From: Chiloscyllium plagiosum
Taxonomy: Eukaryota
Direction of reading: 5' to 3'
NCBI RefSeq assembly: GCF_004010195.1
Contig: NC_057718.1
Location: 104,268,616 to 104,332,615, forward strand
DNA length: 64,000 nt
Positions 1 through 63,605 of this stretch are shown piece after piece. Numbering within the stretch: position 1 is the stretch's first letter; the number at the start of each line of letters is the position of its first letter. The notes beneath the pieces are model-generated. The model was not told the origin of the DNA, searched no databases, and worked only from the letters and a program-made list of their open reading frames with translations. Both the position numbers and the translations under genes were made by a program.

Positions 1-395
1 TGGGGGCGGAGAGGTCAGAAAGAAGATTGCAGGTTAGGAAGGCGGTGCTGAGTTCGAGGGATTTGACTGAGACAAGGTGGGGGGGAGAGGAAATGAGGAA
101 ACTGGAGAAATCTGAGTTCATCCCTTGTGGTTGGAGGGTTCCTAGGTGGAGCGCAGCAGGTCAGGCAGCATCCAGGGAACAGGAGAATCGACGTTTCGGG
201 CATAAACTGGTGAAATCCGAGTTCATCCCTTGTGGTTGGAGGGTTCGTAGGCGGAAGATGAGGCGCTCTTCCTCCAACCGTCGGGTTGTTGTGGTCTGGC
301 GATGGAGGAGTCCAAAGACCTGCATAAGCTTGGTGGAGTGGGAGGGGGAATTGAAGTGTTGAGCCACAGGGTGGTTGGGTTGGTTGGTCCCAAAC
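1..395 (-). mobile_element. Penelope-like element (Neptune-type) 3' fragment: GIY-YIG endonuclease C-terminus, partly duplicated
   Basis: Minus-strand translation PVAQHFNSPSHS...LEEERLIFRLRTLQPQGMN is a typical PLE endonuclease tail; 98-150 is repeated at ~203-255; pLTR piece at 151-203. Confidence 0.8.
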
Positions 396-591
396 TCCAT
401 CAACAAACACCGCTTCTGTGGTGTTTCCTCCGGCATTTATAGTGGCCTGTCCCTGCGCTTCACAGGAGGCTCCCAAGCACTGAGGATGTCACCTAGACAG
501 GGGACGAAACGTTTGCAACAAAAACTTCCAGCTCGGCGAACAGAACCACAGCAACGAGCACCCGAGCTACAAATCTTCTCACAAACTTTGA
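396..591 (+). mobile_element. Penelope-like element (Poseidon-type) 3' terminus with a small internal inversion
   Basis: 457-591 closely matches 10950-11084; ~411-456 is the reverse complement of the expected upstream part. Confidence 0.8.
477..516 (+). ncRNA. Minimal type I hammerhead ribozyme motif (PLE family A)
   Basis: gca CTGAGGA t gtcacct-agac-aggggac GAA ACGT t tgc: stem I gca/tgc, core, stem II, palindromic ACGT helix III. Confidence 0.75.
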
Positions 592-9552: not shown

Positions 9553-10317
9553 ACTTGAACGAAAGCCTCAGATTCCTGCCCCAATCCCATGTGTTCCTTC
9601 TCATTGTTTATTTTGCCCCTTCTAAAGGGGATTCCCTCAACGTGACCCCAAAATAGAAACTAAAGTCAGGGAAGAGGAAATCTTTGTCCATTTGATTTAA
9701 GAACAATTCCAGTTTCTCCAGACTCCCCTTATCATTGATGGTCCTGGTTGCTCTTACCCAGAATTGACACACATAAAGGTATCATTTTGCAAGGAAATAA
9801 AACTTTAGCATTAAGTTTTTGAATTACCCAAGAATTGAGGGAGAGTACAGGACAGTTGTATGGCATGTGACGATACTATGGCTTTAAGAGGTATGTTGAG
9901 TCCTGAGGTTTCTTAATGAACAAAGGTTGAGATAGAGGTTCCAAGCATGTCTGCTCAAAGCCAATAATGTAAGCAGCTTGTGAGGCCTTGGGGTTTCTTT
10001 TAAAGTTGGAACAATATAAGCAGCCTGAATGGGTGGGGTCAAGTTCCTACAGAACCAGGATTCTCAGTTTTAGCTTTCTGCAGTCGCTGGGGTCTTGAAG
10101 CTGGATGTGGAAGCTCTTATTCCTCTCTCTGTTACAGCTAAAACCTGGGGTTCTCTTCCTGCTGCTAGACTCACATGTGAGACAATTCATCTTACTGAAT
10201 TTGCCTTTGCTAAGAGTGTGTTTATGGGATGTTACTATATTACAACAGTTAATTAGTAGCTTTTTATTTTGTTAAGTATTTTGATAGAATTACAGTTATA
10301 ACAATTCTTTTATTTTT

Positions 10318-11084
10318 GTTGTGGTTCTGTTCGCCGAACTGGGAATTTGTGTTGCAGACGTTTCGTCCCCTGTCTAGGTGACATCCTCAGTGCTTGGGAG
10401 TCTCCTGTGAAGCACTTCTGTGATCTTTCCTCTGGCATTTGTAGTGGTTTGAATCTGCCGCTTCCAGTTGTCAGTTCCAGCTGTCCGTTGCAGTGGTCAG
10501 TATATTGGGTCCAGTTCAATGTGCTTATTGATTGAATCTGTGAATGAGTGCCATGCCTCTAGGAATTCCCTGGCTGTTCTCTGTGTAGTGTACAAAATCC
10601 CATGCAAGGACTGCACAAAACACTACATAGGACAAACAGGAAGACAGCTAACAATCCGCATCCATGAACACCAACTAGCCACGAAACGACACGACCAGCT
10701 ATCCTTAGTAGCCACACACACAAATGACAAACAACATGAATTTGACTGGGACAACACTACTATTATAGGACAAGCCAAACAGAGAACAGCCAGGGAATTC
10801 CTAGAGGCATGGCACTCATCCACAGATTCAATCAATAAGCACATTGAACTGGACCCAATATACTGACCACTGCAACGGACAGCTGGAACTGACAACCGGA
10901 AGCGGCAGATTCAAACCACTACAAATGCCAGAGGAAACATCACAGAAGTGCTTCACAGGAGGCTCCCAAGCACTGAGGATGTCACCTAGACAGGGGATGA
11001 AACATCTGCAAAACAAATTCCCAGCTCGGCGAACAGAACCACAACAATGAGCACCCGAGCTACAAATCTTCTCACAAACTTTGA
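10318..11084 (+). mobile_element. Penelope-like element (Poseidon-type) 3' part with an inverted upstream copy; GIY-YIG endonuclease remnant
   Basis: VVYKIPCKDC..HYIGQTGR...RIHEH...REFLE...SINKH at ~10583-10866; 10318-10582 is the reverse complement of ~10780-11046; 12-bp TSD tcttttattttt at 10306-10317 and 11085-11096. Confidence 0.92.
10354..10393 (-). ncRNA. Minimal type I hammerhead ribozyme motif (family A), intact core
   Basis: Reverse complement reads gca CTGAGGA t gtcacct agac aggggac GAA ACGT C tgc; mirror copy at 10970-11009 (+). Confidence 0.8.
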
Positions 11085-26142: not shown

Positions 26143-26926
26143 NNNNNNNNNNNNNNNNNNNNNNNNNNNNNNNNNNNNNNNNNNNNNNNNNNNNNNNNNN
26201 NNNNNNNNNNNNNNNNNNNNNNNNNNNNNNNNNNNNNNNNNNNNNNNNNNNNNNNNNNNNNNNNNNNNNNNNNNNNNNNNNNNNNNNNNNNNNNNNNNNN
26301 NNNNNNNNNNNNNNNNNNNNNNNNNNNNNNNNNNNNNNNNNNNNNNNNNNNNNNNNNNNNNNNNNNNNNNNNNNNNNNNNNNNNNNNNNNNNNNNNNNNN
26401 NNNNNNNNNNNNNNNNNNNNNNNNNNNNNNNNNNNNNNNNNNNNNNNNNNNNNNNNNNNNNNNNNNNNNNNNNNNNNNNNNNNNNNNNNNNNNNNNNNNN
26501 NNNNNNNNNNNNNNNNNNNNNNNNNNNNNNNNNNNNNNNNNNNNNNNNNNNNNNNNNNNNNNNNNNNNNNNNNNNNNNNNNNNNNNNNNNNNNNNNNNNN
26601 NNNNNNNNNNNNNNNNNNNNNNNNNNNNNNNNNNNNNNNNNNNNNNNNNNNNNNNNNNNNNNNNNNNNNNNNNNNNNNNNNNNNNNNNNNNNNNNNNNNN
26701 NNNNNNNNNNNNNNNNNNNNNNNNNNNNNNNNNNNNNNNNNNNNNNNNNNNNNNNNNNNNNNNNNNNNNNNNNNNNNNNNNNNNNNNNNNNNNNNNNNNN
26801 NNNNNNNNNNNNNNNNNNNNNNNNNNNNNNNNNNNNNNNNNNNNNNNNNNNNNNNNNNNNNNNNNNNNNNNNNNNNNNNNNNNNNNNNNNNNNNNNNNNN
26901 NNNNNNNNNNNNNNNNNNNNNNNNNN
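26143..26926. other. Assembly gap (784 N) within a G-rich low-complexity tract (~26050-27095)
   Basis: Run of N flanked by GGGG/GT-rich repeats. Confidence 0.99.
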
Positions 26927-34056: not shown

Positions 34057-35292
34057 GTGATTCAACTCCTCCCCGCTCAATCAGTGACACCCCTCCCTAT
34101 CTCTATGATCCAACTTCTCCCCACTCCATCAGTGACACCCCTCCCTATCTCTATGATCCAACTCCTCCCCACTCCATCTGTGAATGATCCAACTCCTCCC
34201 CACTCCATCAGTGACACCCCTCCCTATCTCTATGATCCAACTCCTCCCCACTCCATCAGTGACACCCCTCCCTATCTCTATGATCCAACTCCTCCCCACT
34301 CCATCAGTGACACCCCTCCCTATCTCTATGATCCAACTCCTCCCCACTCCATCAGTGACACCCCTCCCTATCTCTATGATCCAACTCCTCCCCACTCCAT
34401 CAGTGACACCCCTCCCTATCTCTATGATCCAACTCCTCCCCACTCCATCAGTGACACCCCTCCCTATCTCTATGATCCAACTCCTCCCCACTCCATCAGT
34501 GACACCCCTCCCTATCTCTATGATCCAACTCCTCCCCACTCCATCAGTGACACCCCTCCCTATCTCTATGATCCAACTCCTCCCCACTCCATCAGTGACA
34601 CCCCTCCCTATCTCTATGATCCAACTCCTCCCCACTCCATCAGTGACACCCCTCCCTATCTCTATGATCCAACTCCTCCCCACTCCATCAGTGACACCCC
34701 TCCCTATCTCTATGATCCAACTCCTCCCCACTCCATCAGTGACACCCCTCCCTATCTCTATGATCCAACTCCTCCCCACTCCATCAGTGACACCCCTCCC
34801 TATCTCTATGATCCAACTCCTCCCCACTCCATCAGTGACACCCCTCCCTATCTCTATGATCCAACTCCTCCCCACTCCATCAGTGACACCCCTCCCTATC
34901 TCTATGATCCAACTCCTCCCCACTCCCTCAGTGACACCCCTCCCTCTCTCTATGATCCAACTCCTCCCCACTCCCTCAGTGACACCCCTCCCTCTCTCTA
35001 TGATCCAACTCCTCCCCACTCCCTCAGTGACACCCCTCCCTCTCTCTATGATCCAACTCCTCCCCACTCCCTCAGTGACACCCCTCCCTCTCTCTATGAT
35101 CCAACTCCTCCCCACTCCCTCAGTGACACCCCTCCCTCTCTCTATGATCCAACTCCTCCCCACTCCCTCAGTGACACCCCTCCCTCTCTCTATGATCCAA
35201 CTCCTCCCCACTCCATCAGTGACACCCCTCCCTATCTCTATGATCCAGCCCCTCCCGCTCCATCAGTGACACCCCTCCCTATCTCTATGATC
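34057..35292. repeat. 48-bp minisatellite, ~25 copies, highly homogeneous
   Basis: Unit atgatccaactcctccccactccatcagtgacacccctccctatctct. Confidence 0.98.
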
Positions 35293-39161: not shown

Positions 39162-39235
39162 CAGGAGGTTTTACAACACCCTGCAGAGGCCGGTGGGCCT
39201 GAATCAGAAACTCAGGGCCTGTTACTGCCTGAAAC
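39162..39235 (-). CDS. Candidate 74-nt exon (FQAVTGPEFLIQAHRPLQGVVKPP), gene unidentified
   Basis: Acceptor gggtttctgtttgctgcag, donor CTG|gtatgt, open frame. Confidence 0.22.
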
Positions 39236-42078
39236 CTGCAGCAAACAGAAACCCGCTTCCCGTTACAGAGACCCCGAGGCCTGTTACAGAGACCCCAGGG
39301 CCTGTTACAGAGACCCCAGGGTCTGTTACAGAGACCCCAGGCCTGTTACAGAGACCATGGAGTCTGTTACAGAGACCCCGAGGCCTGTTACAGAGACCCC
39401 GGAGTCTGTTACAGAGACCCCGAGGCCTGTTACAGAGACCCCAGGGACCTGTTACAGACACCACAGGGACCTGTTACAGAGACCCCAGAGCCTGTTACAG
39501 AGACCCCGGAGCCTATTACAGAGACCCCGGAGCCTGTTTCAGAGACCCCAGGGTCTGTTACAGAGACCCCAGGCCTGTTACAGAGACCATGGAGTCTGTT
39601 ACAGAGACCCCGAGGCCTGTTACAGAGACCCCGGAGTCTGTTACAGAGACCCCGAGGCCTGTTACAGAGACCCCAGGGACCTGTTACAGCGACCCCAGGG
39701 CCTGTTACAGAGACCCCAGAGCCAGTTACAGAGACCCCGGAGCCTGTTACAGAGACCCCAGGGTCTGTTACAGAGACCCCAGGCCTGTTACAGAGACCAT
39801 GGAGTCTGTTACAGAGACCCCGAGGCCTGTTACAGAGACCCCTAGTCTGTTACAGAGACCCCGAGGCCTGTTACAGAGACCCCAGGGACCTGTTACAGAG
39901 ACCCCAGAGCCTGTTACAGAGACCCCGGAGTGTGTTACAGAGACCCCAGGGGCCTGTTACAGAGACCCCAGGGGCCTGTTACAGAGACCCCAGAGTCTGT
40001 TACAGAGACCCCAGGGCCTATTACAGATACCCCCGGGCCTGTTACAGAAACCCCTGGGCCTGTTACAGAGACCCCAGGGCCTATTACAGAGAACCCGGGC
40101 CTGTTACAGAGACCCCGGGGCCTGTTACAGAGACCCTGAGCTGTTTTACAGAGACCCCAGGGCCTATTACAGAGACCCCAGAGCCTGTTACAGAGACCCC
40201 AGGGCCTGTTACAGAGACCCCAGGGCCTATTACAGAGACCCCGGGGCCTATTACAGAGACCCCTGGGTCTGTTACAGAGACCCCAGGGCCTATTACAGAG
40301 ACCCCGGGGCCTATTACAGAGACCCCGGGCTGTGTTACAGAGACCCCAGGGCCTATTACAGAGACCCCAGAGCCTGTTACAGAGACCCCGGGGCGTATTA
40401 CAGAGACCCCAAGGGCGTATTACAGAGACCCCTGGGCCTGTTACAGAGACCCCAGGGCCTGTTACAGAGACCCCAGGGCCTGTTAGAGACCCCAGGGCCT
40501 GTTACAGAGACCCCAGGGGCCTGTTACAGAGACCGTGGGGCCTGTTACAGAGACCCCAGGGCCTGTTACAGAGACCCCAGGGCCTATTACAGAGACCCCC
40601 GGTCCTGTTACAGAGACCCCAGGGCCTATTACAGAGACCCCAGGGACCTGTTACAGAGACCCCAGGGGCCTGTTACAGAGACAGCGGGGCCTGTTACAGA
40701 GACCCCAGGGCCTGTTACAGAGACCCCAGGGCCTATTACAGAGACCCCCGGTCCTGTTACAGAGACCCCGGGGCCTATTACAGAGACCACAGGGCCTATT
40801 ACAGAGACCCCAGGGGCCTATTACAGAGACCCCTGGGACCTGTTACAGAGACCCCAGGGACCTGTTACAGAGACCCCAGGGACCTGTTACGGAGACCCCG
40901 GGGCCTGTTACAGAGACCCCGGTGCCTGTTACAGAGACCCCAGGGCCTATTACAGAGACCCCAGGGCCTGTTACAGAGACCCAGGGCCAATTACAGAGCC
41001 CCCAGAGCCCGTTACAGATACCCCAGGGCCTGTTACAGAGACCCCAGAGCCCATTATAGAGAACCCAGGGCCTGTTACAGAGACCCCAGGGACCTGTTAC
41101 AGAGATCCCGGGCCTGTTAGAGAGACCCAAGGGCCTGTTACAGAGACCCAAGGGCCTGTTACAGAGACCCCAGAGACCTGTTACAAAGACCCCAGAGCCC
41201 GTTACAGAGACCCAAGGGCCTGATACAGAGACTCCACGGCCTGTTACAGAGACCCCAGGGCCTATTACAGAGACCCCAGGGACCTGTTACAGAGACCCCG
41301 GGGCCTGTTACAGAGACCCCCGGGCCTATTACAGAGACCCCAGGGACTGTTACAGAGACAGCGGGGCCTGTTACAGAGACCCCAGGGCCCGTTACAGAGA
41401 CCCCAGGGCCTATTACAGAGACCCCCGGTCCTGTTACAGAGACCCCGGGGCCTATTACAGAGACCACAGGGCCTATTACAGAGACCCCAGGGGCCTATTA
41501 CAGAGACCCCTGGGACCTGTTACAGAGACCCCAGGGACCTGTTACAGAGACCCCAGGGACCTGTTACAGAGACCCCGGGGCCTGTTACAGAGACCCCGGT
41601 GCCTGTTACAGAGACCCCAGGGCCCATTACAGAGACCCCAGGGCCCGTTACAGAGACCCCCGGGCCTGTTACAGAGACCCAAGGGCCTGTTACAGAGACC
41701 CCGGGGCCTGTTACAGAGACCCCAGAGCCCGTTACAGAGACCCAAGGGCCTGATACAAAGACTCCACGGCCTGTTACAGAGACCCCCGGGCCTGTTAGAG
41801 AGACCCCAGGGCCTATTACAGAGACCCCAGGGCCTGTTACAGAGACCCCAGGGACCTGTTACAGAGACCCCAGGGCCTGATACAGAGACTCCAGGGCCTG
41901 TTAGAGAGACCCCAGGGCCTATTACAGAGACCCCGGGGCCTGTTACAGAGACCACAGGACCTGATACAGAGACCTCAGGGCCTGTTACAGAGACCCAGGG
42001 CCTGTTACAGAGACCCCCAGGGCCCGTTACAGAGCCCCCAGAGCCCGTTACAGAGACCCCAGAGCCTGTTACAGAGAC

Positions 42079-42548
42079 GGAGAAAGTGAGGTCTGCAGAT
42101 GCTGGAGATCAGAGCTGAAAATGTGTTGCTGGAAAAGCGCAGCAGGTCAGGCAGCATCCAGGGAACAGGAGAATCGACGTTTCGGGCATAAGACCTTCTT
42201 CAGGAATGAGATGACCTGGGGGGTGCAGTGAGAGAGAGACTCACTGAAATCTTTGTAGAAGGAGGAAGAGAGCTTCTTCAAGGAAGGCATCCTTGTAAGA
42301 GGATTCGCAGTAGGTTGAAATCTTTGAGGAGAAAGTGAGGTCTGCAGATGCTGGAGATCAGAGCTGAAAATGTGTTGCTGGAAAAGCGCAGCAAGTCAGT
42401 CAGCATCCAGGGAACAGGAGAATCGACGTTTCGGGCATAAGCCCTTCTTCAGGAATCCTGAAGAAGGGCTTATGCCCGAAACGTCGATTCTCCTGTTCTC
42501 CGGATGCTGCCTGACCTGCTGCGCTTTTCCAGCAACACATTTTCAGCG
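42079..42548 (-). mobile_element. Internally deleted mini-PLE (family B): two direct terminal repeats, ~120-bp spacer, plus an inverted terminal copy
   Basis: 42079-42207 is repeated at 42328-42456; 42454-42548 is the inverted copy; three hammerhead motifs. Confidence 0.88.
42454..42489 (+). ncRNA. Minimal type I hammerhead motif (family B), intact
   Basis: aatc CTGAAGA a gggc ttat gccc GAA ACGT C gatt; minus-strand copies at 42421-42456 and 42172-42207. Confidence 0.82.
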
Positions 42549-42663
42549 CTGTTACAGAGACACCAGGGCCTGTTACAGAGACCCCGGGGCCTGTTACAGA
42601 GACCCCAGATCCCATTACAGAGCCCCCAGAGCCCGTTACAGAGACCCCAGGGCCTGGTAAAGA

Positions 42664-42902
42664 GAAACTTTATTGCTGGAACAGCACAGCAGGTCAGGCA
42701 GCATCCAGGGAACAGGAGATTCGACGTTTCGGGCACAGGCCCTTCTTCAGGAATGAGCAGAGAGTGTTCAGCAGGAGAAGATAAAAGGTAGGGAGGAGGG
42801 ACTTGGAGGAGGGGAGTTGGAAATGTGATAGGTGGAAAGAGGTCAAGGTGAGGGTGATAGGTCGGAGTAGGGTGGAGGCTGAGAGGTCAAGAAGAAGACT
42901 GC
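42664..42902 (-). mobile_element. PLE family B terminal repeat (left inverted arm of the 3.2-kb insertion)
   Basis: 42664-42761 is the exact reverse complement of 45737-45834; hammerhead at 42719-42754 (-). Confidence 0.88.
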
Positions 42903-43594
42903 ACTTTATCCTTTATGAGGTAAAGGAACGAGAGGCGGAGAAAACTTTGAGCAAGAGCCTGCTTGCTTGCTTTCTGTAACTGAACCTAGAACATAGCATT
43001 AGAGCTGGCAGCATCTGTGAAGAGAAACGTTTTGGGTCGACTGAGCCTCAGAACCCACAGATGCTACCATACCAGCAGAGTCTCTCCAACAATTTCTGTT
43101 TTTGTTTCTGATTTACAGCAGCCGCAGTTCTTTTGGCTTTTAACATATCATTAGGACTTGACAGAAATGTGGATGTAACAGCCCACAAGCTGCATCTTCT
43201 AACAGCCACACTGTAGGTATTTAGAACAATGAAAGGATCTTACACACATTACTGAAGCTAAGCTCCCAGCATCATAAGCCTTCACAAGCCATCAGCATTG
43301 AATAGTTCTTTGCGGAGATTAAACAAATGACTTATTTGTCTGACAGATGTTGTGCTTTGAAAAATATTTGCATGCTTCAGCAAAGCACTCAGATTTTATT
43401 GGCCAACCAGTCACCCAGCTTTTCTGCTCCTTCCCTCTTTGTCAGCTGGAACTCAGTCAGTCACATTTGCTTGTAAAGTCAGGCTCATTTGGGAATTAAA
43501 ACACAACAGCGAATGCTGGAGATTGGAAACAAAACAGAAATTTCTGCAGAGACTCTGCTGATATGGTAGCATCTGTGAGAAGAAAGGACAGGAG

Positions 43595-45275
43595 TGGGAA
43601 TTTGTGCTTGGAGTCCGAGGAGATAGGAGAGGTGCTAAATGAATATTTTTCATTAGTATTTACACTGGAAAGAGACAATGTTGTTGAGGAGAACACTGAG
43701 GTACAGGCTATTAGATGAGATGGGACTGAGGTTCGTAAGGAGGAGGTGTTAGCAATTCTGGAAAGTGTGAAAATAGATAAGTCCCCTGGGCCGGATGTGA
43801 TTTATCCTCAGATTCTCTGGGAAGCCAGGAAGGAGATTGCAGAACATTTGGCTTTGATCTTTATGTCGTCATTGTCGACAGAAATTGTGCCAGAAGACTG
43901 GAAGATAGCAAATGTTGTCCCCTTGTTCAAGAAGGGGAGTAGAGACAACTTTGGTAATTATAGAGCAGTGAGCCTTACTTCAGTTGTGGGTAAAGTGCTG
44001 GAAAGAATTATAAGATATAGGATTTATTATTAACTAGAAAGGAACAATTTGATTAGGGATAGTCAACACAGTTTTGTGAAGGGCAGGTCGTGCCTCGCAA
44101 AGCTTATTGAGATGGTTGAGAAGATGAATGAGGGTATAGTGGTTGATGTGGTGTACATGGATTTCAGTAAAGCGTTTGATAAGGTTCCCCATGGTAAGCT
44201 GTTGCAGTAAATATGGAGGTATGGGATTGAGGGTGATTTAGTGGTATGAATCAGAAATTGGTTAGCTGAAAGAAGACAGAGAGTGGTGGTGGCAAATGTT
44301 CATCCTGGTGTTCAGTTATTAGTGGTATACCATAAGGATCTGTTTAGGGGCCACTGCTGTTTGTCATTTTTATACATGACCTGGATGATGGCGTAGAAGG
44401 ATGGGTTAGTAAATTTACAAATGACTCTAAGGTCGGTCGAGCTGTGGACAGTGCTGAAGGATATTGCTGCTTACAGAGGGACATAGATAAGCTGCAGAGT
44501 TGGGCTGAAAGGTGGCAAATGGAGTTTAATGCAGAAAAGTGTGAGGTGATTCATTTTGGAAGAAGTAACAGTAATACAGAGTACTGGGGTAATGGTAAGG
44601 TTCTTGCAGTGTGGATGAGCAGAAAGATCTCCGTGTCCATGTACATAGATCCCTGAAAGTTGCCACCCAGGTTAATAGGATTGTTAAGAAGGCATATGAA
44701 CCATGGGGTTATGTTGCAGCTGTAGGAAACTATGGTGTGGCCGCACTTGGAGTATTGCGTACAGTTCTGGTTACCACATTATAGGAAGGATGTGTAAGTT
44801 TTGGAAAAGATGCAGAGGAGATTTATGAGGATATTGTCTGGTATGGAAGGAAGGTCTTCTGAGGAAAGACTGAGTGACCTGAGGCTGTTTTCGTTAGAAG
44901 GAAGAGGTTGAGAGGTGACTTAATAGAGATGTGAAAGATGATCAGAGGATTAGATAGTGTTAGCAGAGAGAGACGTTTTCCTCGGATAGTGATGGCTAGC
45001 ATGAGAGGACATAGCTTTAAATTGAGCGGTGATAGATATAGGACAGATGTCAGAGGGGTAGTTTCTTTACTCAGAGAGTAGTAATGGCGTGAAACTCCCT
45101 GCCTGCAACTGTAGTAGACTCACCGACTTTAATGTCTTTTTAAATGGCCATTGGATAAACATATGGATGATAATGCAACAATGCAGGTTAGTTCAGCTTC
45201 AGGCTGGTTTCACAGGTCAGCACAACATTGAGGGTCAGAGAGCCTGGACTGTGCTGTAATGTTCTGTGTTCTTTG
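43595..45275 (+). mobile_element. Decayed CR1 LINE (RT to 3' end), many stops and frameshifts
   Basis: KSPGPDVIYP, NYRAVSLTSVVGK, DFSKAFDKVPH, WQMEFNAEKC. Confidence 0.93.
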
Positions 45276-45399
45276 AAAGCAAGATAATATTTCGAGTCTG
45301 GCGATTCTTCATCAGAACTGTTAACAGCTCAGGAAAGGTGGTAATATATTGAAGTGACGTTTGTGGGAAGGGGTTGGTCTTGCACAAGGTGACTTACTT

Positions 45400-45728
45400 G
45401 CCGATTTACTTCCTCCAACCTCAGTATCCAAGGCCTCAGGCACACCTTCCAGGTGAAGCAGCAGCTTACCTGCACTTCTCTCAACTCATTTATTTCATTC
45501 ACTGCTCAGAATGTGGTCTCCTGTATATCGGGGGAGATGAAACACAGATTTGATGACCGCTTTGCTGAACACCTACACTCTGTCTGTAAAACATGACCCA
45601 GAGTTTCCCACTGCCTCCACTTCAACACACCACTGTGTTCCTACACCAACATTTCTGTCCCAGATCTGTTGCAGTGTTCCTTAACGCAAGTTCAAAGAAC
45701 AACACTTCATTTTCCACTTGGGGATTCT
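45400..45728 (+). mobile_element. Old Neptune-type PLE endonuclease remnant
   Basis: HTFQVKQQLTCTS...DRFAEHLHSV...HFNT...QHFIFHLGIL with frameshifts. Confidence 0.7.
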
Positions 45729-45736
45729 GTTTCTGT

Positions 45737-45873
45737 TCTGCTCATTCCTGAAGAAGGGCCTGTGCCCGAAACGTCGAATCTCCTGTTCCCTGGATGCTGC
45801 CTGACCTGCTGTGCTGTTCCAGCAATAAAGTTTCAACTTTGATCTCCAGCATCTGCAGACCTCACTTTCTCCT
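45737..45873 (+). mobile_element. PLE family B 3' terminus (right arm) with an intact hammerhead at 45744-45779
   Basis: attc CTGAAGA a gggc ctgt gccc GAA ACGT C gaat; ends ctcactttctcc. Confidence 0.88.
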
Positions 45874-46758
45874 GTTAAAGAGACCCCACAGCCAGTTATA
45901 GAGACCCCGGGGCCTGTTACAGAGACCCCAGGGACCTGTTACAGAGACCCCAGGGCCTGTTACAGAGACCCCCGGGCCTGTTACAGAGACCCAAGGGCCT
46001 GTTACAGAGACCCCAGGGACTGTTACAGAGACCCCCGGGCCTGTTACAGAGACTCCAGGGCCTGTTACAGAGACCCCAGGCCCTGTTACAGAGACCCCAG
46101 GGACTGTTACAGAGACCCCAGGGACTGTTACAGATTTCAAACAGCTCTTGGAGGAACAGCAATGGAGGAACAAGAAGAAGAGAGAAATACGAACTCTATG
46201 GCAGTAAAATCTTGCATCATCTTCAGTGTTTTAAGATGGTGCTAGAGTGTGGTGACACTTTGTGTATAACACACACAAAGAAACTTTTCATGTGTAATTT
46301 TATGTACATGTGACAATGAAGCTAAGTCCTTTTTAAATCCTCTGAGTGACAGGTTGCTATAAATGCAAATGAGTAATGTCCCAGTGAGGGAAACAGCTTC
46401 TGAATGAACAGGATAAATAACTGTATATCACATTATTCCTCTAGGGATGTGAATTCCTAGACTGTAAGCGAAGTGTCGATTACAGTGGGTAAATTGGATC
46501 AGTTACAGTTAAGAAATAAAGAAAGAAAGCTTAGATTAAGAAAGAGAACTTTGTAAAAAACTTATGTTTTCCATGCTTTTACACCCTGAACAATCACGGC
46601 CCAAAGGAATGAGGGTCCACACTTGTAATGATTAACTGTCCGGGTTATCGGTATTAATTGGCAGTAAGTATCAGTTATCACATCATTAAATGGAAATAAC
46701 AAGATCAAATGTCTCACGGTTACTGTATTAATAGAGCATCTTTACACCGTATATCACG

Positions 46759-47650
46759 AGGAGAAAGTGGGTACAGCAGATGTTGGAGATCAGAGTCAAA
46801 AAGTGTGCAGCTGGAAAAGCACAGCGAGGAGCAGGAGAGTCGACGTTTAGGGCATAAGCCCTTCATCAGGAATGAGAAGGTGGCCCAAGGGGGCTGAGAG
46901 ACAGGTCATGAGGGCAGTGCCAAGTTGGAAGGTTGGATCTGGGACATGATGGGGGGAGGGGAGATGAGGAAATTGGGGTTGAAGGGTCCTGAAGTGGAAG
47001 ATGAGGCAATCTTCCTCCAGGCATCGGATGGTTAGGGAGTGGCGATGGAGGAGGCCCAGAAATTGCATGTACTTGGTTGAGTGGGAGGGGGAGTTAAAGT
47101 GTTTGACCACCGGGCGATGGAGTTGTTTAGTGTGTCTGTCCTGTCTCCCCAATGTAGAGGACACCACATCGAGAGCAACGGACAGAGTAGATGAGGTGAT
47201 TGGATGTGCAGGAAAATCTCTGCCAGATGTGGAAGGATCCTTTGAGGCCTTGGACGGAGGTGAGGGGGGAGGTACGGGTGCAGGGTTTACACCTCATGCA
47301 GTGGCAGGGCAAGATGCCGGGAGGGGAGGGTGGGTTGGTGGGGGGCGTGGACGAGACGAGAGAGTCGCAGATGGAATGGTCTCTCCGGAATGCAGATAGA
47401 GGTGGGGAGAGAAATATATCCCGAGTGGTGGAGTCTGTTTGTAGGTAGCAGAGGATGATGCGATGTACCCGGAGGTTGGTGGGGTGAAAGGTGAGGACCG
47501 GGGGGGGGGTTATGTCCTTGTTGCCTTTGGAAGGGTGGGGTTTGAGGGCAGAGGTGCAGGAAGTGGAGGAGATGTGCTGGAGGGCATCATCGACCACGTG
47601 GGAAGGGAAGTTGTGGTCTTTGAAGGTAGAGACCATCTGGAATGTTCTGG
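46759..47650 (-). mobile_element. Neptune-type Penelope-like element 3' fragment (linker, Cys-rich region, GIY-YIG, pLTR)
   Basis: VLTFHPTN, PCHCMRCKPC, LIYSVRCSRCGVLYIGETG, PVVKHFNS, LIFHFRTLQP; hammerhead at ~46838-46873. Confidence 0.9.
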
Positions 47651-48770
47651 TGGATTTGCTCCTCCTGGATTCGGGAGTAAAGTATCGCGTTTTCACAGGA
47701 GGGGGGTGGGGCAGGCCGATGGTGAGCTGATCCATTCACAGAGTTAAAGTGAAGAGGGACACCTCAGATATAAGCTGTTGGATTGCCATGTTAACCTCAG
47801 ATCTACCCACAGCCAAAGCTGCTGTTAAAATCCACATGCATAATGACAAGCACTGCTAGCCTCGCTATAATTTTGGCAGCATGTTACAGGCCAAAACGTT
47901 CTTCTGCTCTGGAACTCTGATGTAGTCAACAGTGTGCGGTCAATCCCTGCACCAGCTGAAGGACTCTCCATATCAACCTCTCCCCTCACCGGACGCATGA
48001 TAACCCTCAGGTTAAACCACCACCAGGTGTCTCTCCCTCCCTCTCTCTCTCTCTCTCTCTCTTTATAATGAGTGAGTCGCCCACTTGGATTCTGGTGCCT
48101 TTACTTTTATTTACAGATTGAGTACTACCCACCCCCTAACTCATGCATTTCCCCCAAATTCTCCAACCATTCTTAGGTGAAGACGGTGAGGGAGGGGTGA
48201 TTGAATATTTTTAAGACAGAGGCTAATAGATTCTAATTAGACAGGAGATCAAAAGTTATGGGATAGAATGAGGAATTCAGGGCACAACCCGTTCAGCCAC
48301 AATCTTATTGAGTATAGGAGCTGGATCAAGGGGCTGAATGGTCTACTCTATTCCCATTTCACGTGTTTCTATGCAGGTGCAGTGAGGCAGCTTCTCTCTC
48401 GTCTTTAACTAGAGAGGTTGACATTTAGGAATTAGCTATTATTTCATTGTGAAAAAGGAACCACTAATTCCCAGCTGGAGGTATCTGCAGTGAGTTTAGT
48501 TTGTATCCGCTGTTTAAATACAGAGAGTTCAGGCCAATCAGGCTGATGTGGTTTTTGTGAAGCAACTGCACATTCTGATCTCGCTGTCTAACTGTGTGCC
48601 AGCCTCTCACTGAAGTGGGCCTGGCACTTACACCTCAACAACAGAGAGTGCCATTTTAATGTTGAAAACTGCCCTGGAAGGTCTTGTCCAGCCAGTTGCT
48701 ACGTCGGATTAACATGGACTTTGGGCGCCACTTGCTGGTCACTTTGAGCAAACGCAGATTGTAAAAATAC

Positions 48771-62879: not shown

Positions 62880-63605
62880 GCTAATGTAAGTTCACAAGAA
62901 TGGTATCTGGATTTCAGGGGTTAATTTATGAGGAGAGATTACACAAATTCAGTCTGTTTTCTATAGACATTAGAAGGTTAAGGGATGATCTCATTGAAGT
63001 CTTCAAGATACTAAAGGGAAAGACAGGATAGATAAAGACAAACTATTCCCACTGGTTGGGGATTTTAGAACTCAGGGCATAGTCTGAGGATTAGGGTGAA
63101 ACCGTTCAGGAGAGATGTGAGGAAGCACTTCCACACACAAAGGGTGGGAGAGGTTTGGAAACCCTTTCCACGAATGGCAGTGGATGCTGGATCAGTAGTT
63201 AACTTTAAATCCAAGATAGATCATTTTTGTTAAGCAAGTTATTAACGGATATGGTAAAAACAATGACTGCAGATGCTGGAAACCAGATTCTGGATTAGAG
63301 TGTTGCTGGAAAAGCACAACAGCTCAGACAGCATCCAAGGAGCAGGAAAATCGACGTTTCGGGCAAAAGCCCTTCATCAGGAATACAGGCATAGTGCCTG
63401 AAGGGACTCTGCCTGTATTCCTGATGAAGGGCTTTTGCCCGAAACGTCGATTTTCCTGCTCCTTGGATGTTGTCTGAGCTGCTGTGCTTTTCCAGCACCA
63501 CTCTGATCTAGAATTAAGGGATATGAGCCAAGGGCAGGCCTATGGAGTTAGTCTGTGATCACATTAAATGGCTGAACAGGCTTGATGGGCTGAATGTTCC
63601 TATGT
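62880..63605 (+). mobile_element. Old CR1 3' fragment containing a PLE hairpin
   Basis: RRLRDDLIEVFKILKG; RKHFHTQRVGEVW. Confidence 0.8.
63254..63512. mobile_element. Fold-back PLE insertion (family B variant) with two intact hammerheads (63349-63384 -, 63417-63452 +)
   Basis: attc CTGATGA a gggc tttt gccc GAA ACGT C gatt on both strands; TSD attaa(c/g)ggatatg at 63241-63253 and 63513-63525. Confidence 0.88.

What the first reader, a model, noticed from the sequence alone, without database searches (positions are those of the whole stretch)
42653..45883. 3.2-kb block of old genomic DNA bracketed by identical inverted Penelope termini inside a minisatellite: apparent PLE-mediated capture
Seen: the same minisatellite lies on both sides in the same orientation. 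42664-42761 and 45737-45834 are 98-bp exact inverted repeats, each with an intact hammerhead. Both junctions carry cctg(g/t)taaagaga, a C>A variant I did not see elsewhere in the array, which looks like a 13-bp TSD. The interior is much older: a stop-ridden CR1, decayed PLE hairpins and non-repetitive DNA. The interior ends in an old Neptune endonuclease remnant (..IFHLGIL), close to where a real element would run into its terminal repeat. Known: PLE insertions often carry an inverted terminal copy. Inference: reverse transcription began on a young PLE 3' end, switched to another template via the old PLE remnant, copied ~2.8 kb and finished with an inverted terminus. The other fold-backs in this window would be the same structure without cargo.
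Basis: partly seen in the sequence, partly recalled or inferred. Interest (0 to 1): 0.72.

Follow-up and report, generated by a model that had tools for sequence, protein, structure and literature searches.

The report
Penelope insertion carrying captured host DNA
A young Penelope-like jumping gene landed in a short tandem repeat and trapped 2.8 kb of older host DNA between its two mirror-image ends, a well-preserved example of a kind of capture already described, with a weak hint that the DNA was moved rather than copied.

Summary
The block is real and most likely one insertion. A young Penelope-like element (PLE) 3' end brackets 2.83 kb of older DNA: antisense arm 42664-42903, sense arm 45737-45872, 98 nt identical, an 11-bp near-perfect target-site duplication (TSD), and the usual one-sided 38-nt tail. 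The minisatellite's unit order runs on across the block, so the array was once continuous. Contigs of two related organisms hold the interior without the arms, stopping at 42904 (both) and 45739 (one), so the cargo is pre-existing genomic DNA. One contig of the closest organism runs into the right arm. No donor was found; contig depth suggests one copy only, so the fragment may have been moved. Best reading: two primed cDNA ends joined through a captured DNA fragment. Capture between PLE ends is published (rotifer, 2013), and this scan noted three smaller cases on other DNA of this genome. New member of a known kind.

The parts
39262..42078 (+). 21-bp minisatellite, main left part (about 134 units)
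42079..42547 (-). separate PLE insertion of another subfamily in the same array (partial tandem plus inverted end, 35-nt tail, 13-bp TSD); cargo-free comparison
42549..42665 (+). minisatellite, five units plus the left TSD copy
42655..42665 (+). left TSD copy (11 bp; last two bases shared with the arm)
42664..42903 (-). left arm: antisense young PLE 3' region, 240 nt, lacking the last 38 nt (tail); letters typical of a subfamily common in organism A only
   Evidence: (table 3)
42726..42750 (-). minimal hammerhead core in left arm
42904..45739 (.). cargo: older genomic DNA, present without arms in organisms B and C
   Evidence: table 8 records 1, 3, 8, 9, 10, 16
43005..43143 (+). decayed PLE fold-back of an older family (limits approximate)
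43144..43494 (.). non-repetitive DNA, single-contig depth
   Evidence: (table 2)
43495..43590 (-). old PLE 3' terminus, outer part (limits approximate)
43591..45274 (+). decayed LINE (CR1-type by recalled motifs) inserted in the old PLE terminus; limits approximate
45275..45390 (-). old PLE terminus, inner part, with hammerhead core 45315-45289
45391..45729 (+). frameshifted GIY-YIG-type endonuclease remnant of the old PLE, similar to the Neptune-like remnant at 46847-47735
45737..45872 (+). right arm: sense young PLE 3' end, 136 nt, starting 8-11 nt before the hammerhead core and ending at the family's natural terminus
   Evidence: (table 7)
45748..45772 (+). minimal hammerhead core in right arm
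45835..45872 (+). 38-nt tail, present on this side only
45873..45883 (+). right TSD copy
45873..46134 (+). minisatellite, right part (12 units and a stub), continuing the unit order of the left part

Best explanation
One integration of a young PLE, in the lineage of organism A, cut the minisatellite with nicks about 11 nt apart. Both target ends primed reverse transcription on the element's 3' region: the right end from the full terminus (with the 38-nt tail, 136 nt copied, stopping just before the hammerhead), the left end from the tail-less start (240 nt copied). Normally the two cDNA ends are joined to each other and give a fold-back. Here they were joined through a 2.83-kb piece of chromosomal DNA from another place, by end joining or repair synthesis (blunt on the left, at most 3 nt of microhomology on the right). 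Shown: anatomy, TSD, former continuity of the array, pre-existence of the cargo without arms, its breakpoints. Inferred: double priming, capture at the DNA level and at the time of insertion. Open: where the donor is, and whether the piece was copied or moved.
For: TSD with a variant found at 2 of 153 units; 11-13-bp TSDs and 35-39-nt one-sided tails in cargo-free fold-backs of the window. The two units left of the block plus the three right of it repeat the order at 40991-41096: 0 of 9 other phases, 13 of 2000 random triples and 1 of 130 consecutive triples (the match itself) score as high (measure chosen after seeing the pattern). B and C contigs stop matching at 42904 with 192 and 388 nt running on unlike the arm; a B contig stops at 45739 with 38 nt left. 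Both LINE joints inside the cargo are covered in B and the 5' joint in C. At five left-arm positions the window's letter is held by 42-78% of depth in A runs but 1-3% in B and C (table 3). An A contig runs 45428-45765, into the right arm. The right arm begins where cargo-free copies begin, so little was lost there. A lizard PLE protein nicks and extends both strands, and two RT start sites bound the tail (PMC11167929, passages). L1 insertions can carry templated genomic DNA (PMC11702581, passages).
Against: The letters of the B and C flanks were not shown, so their place in the genome is unknown and a local rearrangement is not excluded. No donor was found. The A contig reaches only 26-29 nt past the joint, under the tool's 31-letter bar for bridging; no listed A piece spans the left inner joint or either outer joint (most records were not listed). 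The TSD has one mismatch while the arms have none. A later repair patch in a ready-made fold-back would look much the same.
Confidence: 0.55

Rival explanations
1. Two steps: an ordinary fold-back PLE inserted first; later its centre broke and was patched with 2.83 kb of other chromosomal DNA by host repair. The PLE is a bystander.
For: Blunt and 3-nt joints fit repair. Repair-mediated capture is known in vertebrates, up to 619 bp for closely linked cases (PMC2671141, abstract).
Against: The right arm starts 8-11 nt before the hammerhead core, like intact short copies, so no resection is seen there; the arms are still 98/98, leaving little time between steps.
Confidence: 0.2
2. RNA route (trans-mobilisation or 5' transduction): a short young PLE first landed at the cargo's right edge at the donor site; a read-through RNA was then reverse-transcribed from the PLE end through 2.83 kb and closed with an inverted arm.
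For: Host DNA between pseudo-LTRs with TSDs is reported as mobilised in trans in Adineta vaga (PMC3846280). It would explain why the A contig passes the right joint without a break.
Against: It predicts two copies in A; one contig covers 43307 and 45490 in each A run, at 0.54-1.0 of the depth expected for one locus. Young copies in this window are mostly under 250 nt.
Confidence: 0.13
3. One reading: the polymerase left the young PLE RNA for another template by pairing with the old PLE endonuclease remnant, copied 2.8 kb and ended with an inverted terminus.
For: The cargo does end in an old PLE remnant in the same orientation as the right arm.
Against: About 240 nt out of register; remnant ends about 10 nt before the joint; at most 3 nt shared; old and young termini are different families. 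The left arm has 142 nt absent from the right arm.
Confidence: 0.04
4. The interior is in its ancestral place; two independent young copies, each with array sequence, landed at its two sides.
For: The family is very abundant (summed depth 1-3.7 million on arm bins against about 10 on unique DNA in run X15), so identical 98-mers are not rare (37% at 1% divergence). No second copy of the interior is seen in A.
Against: It does not explain the shared rare variant at both junctions, the unit order running across the block, or the one-sided tail. Long single contigs left of 42904 in B and C are unlikely to be array (inference).
Confidence: 0.05
5. Assembly chimera at abundant repeats.
For: Three of the four joints have no listed read or contig support.
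Against: An A contig with 3 differences from the window in 338 nt crosses into the right arm; the TSD and the cross-species breakpoints sit at the base-exact arm edges.
Confidence: 0.03

Closest known systems
Host DNA captured between Penelope pseudo-LTRs in Adineta vaga (Arkhipova, Yushenova, Rodriguez 2013, PMC3846280; parts 1-4 of 5 read)
   Same: Unrelated host DNA framed by PLE termini and a short TSD; 0.9-1.5-kb host spacers in Pen1; an intron-containing gene between termini with an 8-bp TSD and a proven empty allele; other non-coding captures mentioned.
   Different: There the gene lies between two direct pseudo-LTRs with a third inverted one, read as mobilisation in trans; here the cargo lies between the two inverted arms, is non-coding, 2.83 kb, in a vertebrate, with no empty allele or donor shown.
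Standard EN+ PLE insertion with inverted 5'-truncated copy and one-sided 30-40-bp tail (PMC8557442, passages; PMC11167929, passages)
   Same: Head-to-head arms, 38-nt tail on one side, short TSD, repeat target, hammerhead in the terminal repeat.
   Different: Arms are not adjacent; 2.83 kb of foreign DNA sits at their joint; no ORF of the young element is present.
L1 twin priming and L1 insertions with templated genomic DNA (PMC11702581, passages)
   Same: Both target ends extended, TSD kept, inner joint closed by end joining, sometimes with genomic DNA inserted.
   Different: L1 halves come from adjacent, nearly non-overlapping parts of one RNA; here both arms copy the same 98 nt. The L1 templated pieces came from near the insertion site; no donor lies in this 64-kb window.
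[quoted passage not shown] 2009, PMC2671141, abstract only); templated sequence insertions (PMC5110952, search listing only)
   Same: Genomic DNA inserted at a break inside a repeat.
   Different: Those closely linked cases are at most 619 bp and keep a donor; this is 2.83 kb, sits exactly at a PLE arm joint, and no donor is visible.

Membership tests
EN+ PLE inverted-end insertion | inverted 5'-truncated copy of the terminal repeat facing the sense copy | tested here: met
EN+ PLE inverted-end insertion | 30-40-bp tail on one end only | tested here: met
   38 nt; family terminus at 45872-45873 from 441-580 loose ends per run
EN+ PLE inverted-end insertion | short TSD around the whole unit | tested here: met
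   11 bp, one mismatch, rare shared variant
EN+ PLE inverted-end insertion | minimal hammerhead motif in the terminal repeat | tested here: met
   core, helix I, helix II and palindromic 4-mer read from sequence; no Rfam hit; cleavage not tested
EN+ PLE inverted-end insertion | linked RT plus GIY-YIG ORF of the same family | tested here: inconclusive
   no young ORF in the block; related ends at 46759-46879 and 150-202 adjoin endonuclease remnants; Pfam gave no hit on those three remnants
Neptune clade | Cys-rich linker (CX2-5CxxC) before the endonuclease | tested here: inconclusive
   seen in the remnant at 47127-47735; the cargo's remnant matches that copy (tblastx E 5e-10) but starts after the linker; no RT tree made
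PLE-mediated capture of host DNA (A. vaga type) | cargo is host DNA unrelated to the mobilising element | tested here: met
   cargo present without arms in organisms B and C at about 3-3.6% divergence
PLE-mediated capture of host DNA (A. vaga type) | empty allelic or orthologous site with one TSD copy | tested here: inconclusive
   only indirect: unit order continues across the block; no genome held
PLE-mediated capture of host DNA (A. vaga type) | donor copy remains elsewhere (duplication) | tested here: inconclusive
   none in window; single-locus depth in two A runs, but contigs drop variants
PLE-mediated capture of host DNA (A. vaga type) | RNA intermediate spanning the cargo | not tested
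Repair-mediated duplication / templated insertion | nearby donor, little or no homology at joints | tested here: inconclusive
   joints fit (0 and at most 3 nt); no donor within 42 kb left or 18 kb right, apart from a 784-N gap

The most novel reading that the evidence does not exclude
PLE integration can relocate kilobase pieces of host chromosome by cut and paste: a fragment released elsewhere is ligated between the two freshly primed cDNA ends and is lost from its old place, so PLEs would shuffle genome order without making duplicates.
Probability: 0.25. Interest if true: 0.62.

Novelty: new member of a known kind. Interest (0 to 1): 0.4.

Why it matters
How PLEs make their mirror-image ends is still open. 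This locus separates the two ends and shows that they differ in length and start point, which favours two priming events over simple fold-back copying and gives a testable fossil for the in vitro work on PLE double-strand priming. With a family this abundant, even rare captures would move much host DNA in these genomes. If the donor site proves deleted, PLEs would be agents of relocation as well as duplication. The cargo itself is non-coding repeat debris, so no host function is implied.

Tried and rejected
Whole-genome donor search: no genome is held. Window self-search: only short or diverged repeat matches, no second copy of the interior or of its ends. Earlier-findings index by sequence, relatives, near place and words: nothing. 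One exact 22-nt scan of metagenome contigs: 0 hits; the second scan was not used. Protein search with the last 42 residues of the frame that runs out of the array, hoping for an annotated uninterrupted orthologue: 12 candidates, none at E 0.01; only longer proteins searched. Rfam: 0. Pfam on six fragments: four without hits, RVT_1 and GIY-YIG below cut-off on two. Monomer fold of the hammerhead region: not significant. For divergence tallies I kept 18 of 32 listed contig pieces and dropped 14 that differ by about 8-12% as paralogous LINE copies. Uncovered places are not taken as absence. One X4 record runs over an end of the laid stretch; it was not listed, so it is not counted as junction support.
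Full report
OBSERVATION. The two 98-nt arms are exact inverted repeats at the stated places and the same 21-bp minisatellite lies on both sides in one orientation. Alignment with other window copies shows what they are: the right arm (45737-45872) is the sense 3' end of a PLE family and ends at the family's natural terminus, where 441-580 contigs per run leave the stretch into unrelated AT-rich flanks (table 7). The left arm is antisense, 240 nt (42664-42903), lacks the last 38 nt and carries 142 nt that the right arm lacks. Each arm has a minimal hammerhead core (motif recalled, matched to passages of PMC4209133); Rfam gives no hit. The TSD is 11 bp with one mismatch; its C>A variant occurs at 2 of 153 parsed units, both at the junctions.

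THE ARRAY WAS CONTINUOUS. The two units before the block and the three after it repeat, in order, the run at 40991-41096, including two rare variants. With a rarity-weighted score, 0 of 9 other phases of the right array, 13 of 2000 random triples and 1 of 130 consecutive triples (the match itself) reach the observed value. I chose the measure after noticing the pattern, so the numbers are indicative. Cargo-free fold-backs in the window show the same geometry: tails of 35 and 39 nt at 42079-42547 and 28.7-28.9 kb, and TSD-like 12-13-mers at 42.1-42.6, 55.1-55.3 and 63.3-63.5 kb.

THE CARGO IS OLDER HOST DNA. It holds a decayed PLE fold-back, about 350 nt of unique DNA, an old antisense PLE terminus split by a decayed LINE, and a frameshifted endonuclease remnant. 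No genome is held, so I used public runs: 18 of 24 listed runs, from three coded organisms, hold part of the interior. Four were laid. Locus contigs differ from the window at 4 of 1312 and 5 of 1193 letters in two runs of organism A, 45 of 1266 in B and 31 of 1023 in C (18 of 32 listed pieces kept, 14 dropped as paralogues). A B contig and a C contig both stop matching at 42904, with 192 and 388 nt running on unlike the arm (the side for the C record, on the minus strand, is my reading of the table's coordinates; the B record is unambiguous). A B contig stops at 45739 with 38 nt left. B contigs cross both LINE joints and a C contig the 5' one. So the interior existed as one piece, without these arms, before A split from B and C. 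At five left-arm positions the window's letter holds 42-78% of depth in A runs and 1-3% in B and C (table 3): the arm belongs to a subfamily that spread in A. One A contig (45428-45765, 3 differences) runs into the right arm, 26-29 nt past the joint, just under the tool's bar of 31; no listed piece spans the other three joints.

JOINTS. Left: arm ends at 42903, cargo starts at 42904, no shared bases. Right: cargo match in B ends at 45739, arm identity starts at 45737, so at most 3 shared bases. The old remnant ends near 45729; in a related copy about 260 nt separate the same motif from the point where the right arm starts, against about 20 here.

COPIED OR MOVED? There is no second copy in the window. 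In each A run one contig covers 43307 and one covers 45490; in X15 the latter is the arm-joined contig and it passes the joint without a break. Depth relative to C is 0.88 and 0.78 where old-repeat depth predicts 0.88 for equal copy number; X4 relative to B is 0.77 and 0.58 where 1.07 is predicted. That looks like one locus, not two. Against leaning on it: the tool warns that contig depth is no copy number, that variants are dropped and records filtered; X15 also has pieces at 15.5 and 23.4 and 24.6 total depth at 42941; and the letters of the B and C flanks were not shown, so a local swap of neighbouring segments remains possible. I take it as a hint only.

MECHANISM. Best reading (0.55): one integration with staggered nicks about 11 nt apart; both target ends primed on the PLE 3' region, one with and one without the tail; the two cDNA ends were joined through a captured chromosomal fragment. 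Support from papers: a lizard PLE protein cleaves and extends both strands and its two RT start sites bound the tail (PMC11167929, passages); L1 twin priming keeps the TSD and closes the inner joint by end joining, sometimes with templated genomic DNA (PMC11702581, passages; its Fig. S10 was not seen and may bear on this). Rivals: later repair patch in a ready fold-back (0.2); RNA-level transduction from a donor that already carried the right arm (0.13); in place with two independent insertions (0.05); homology-guided switch (0.04); chimera (0.03). The first three share the conclusion that foreign DNA entered a continuous array inside a PLE unit (together about 0.9). Arm identity alone proves little: the family's summed depth is in the millions and 98/98 is expected 37% of the time at 1% divergence.

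COMPARISON AND NOVELTY. Host DNA between PLE termini with TSDs is described in Adineta vaga, including 0.9-1.5-kb spacers, a gene with an empty allele and unspecified non-coding cases (PMC3846280, parts 1-4 of 5 read; supplements not read). Inverted ends and one-sided tails are standard (PMC8557442, passages). Repair capture of nearby DNA is known in vertebrates (PMC2671141, abstract). Four searches of the open library (top listings only) showed no paper on kilobase cargo between inverted PLE arms in a vertebrate; the library lacks most subscription papers. A 2026 preprint on retrozymes has no mention of sharks or capture (10.64898/2026.07.22.740005, passages). This scan noted three smaller captures (85, 143 and 236 nt) with donors 0.7-1.3 kb away on other DNA of this genome (unchecked AI notes). 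This case is about ten times larger, has cross-species breakpoints, and lacks a visible donor.

VERDICT. Observation confirmed with corrections; interpretation partly supported. New member of a known kind; interest 0.40. Most novel reading not excluded: cut-and-paste relocation of host DNA during PLE integration, probability 0.25, interest 0.62 if true.

Noticed in passing
window 42079-42547: A second PLE insertion of another subfamily hit the same position of the repeat unit in the same array, in the opposite orientation, with a 13-bp TSD: a hint of target preference within the unit.
   Followed up: partly
window 39233-46207: The 21-bp unit reads as a Thr/Pro-rich heptapeptide, and the right part runs in frame into 26 residues of charged, protein-like sequence before a stop; many 20- and 22-bp units break the frame. 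No homologue among longer proteins.
   Followed up: partly
window 39200-39262: The unique DNA just left of the array holds a 13-nt match to the unit, possibly the seed of the minisatellite.
   Followed up: no
window 43495-43590 and 45275-45729: The cargo itself holds an older inverted-end PLE unit, split by a LINE, whose sense half breaks off near the cargo's right edge; the bases 45730-45737 resemble that old family's tail-less end.
   Followed up: partly
window 10316-11047: Inverted pair of another PLE family, 269-nt arms at 97% with a 194-nt spacer of its own endonuclease sequence and a different hammerhead type.
   Followed up: partly
window 1-440: Rearranged PLE piece: 56 nt of young terminus (100% to 42136-42191) embedded between two copies of the endonuclease end, suggesting a template switch between element parts.
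   Followed up: no
window 63250-63514: Fold-back with a short non-palindromic centre of about 30 nt between the arms.
   Followed up: no
window 34184-35292: 48-bp tandem array, 23 copies at 99% identity, far more homogeneous than other arrays here.
   Followed up: no
window 26143-26926: 784-N gap; its true size is unknown and it could hide a donor.
   Followed up: no
window 43307 and 45490: All four laid runs share a letter that differs from the window at both places: private variants of the assembled haplotype or base errors.
   Followed up: no
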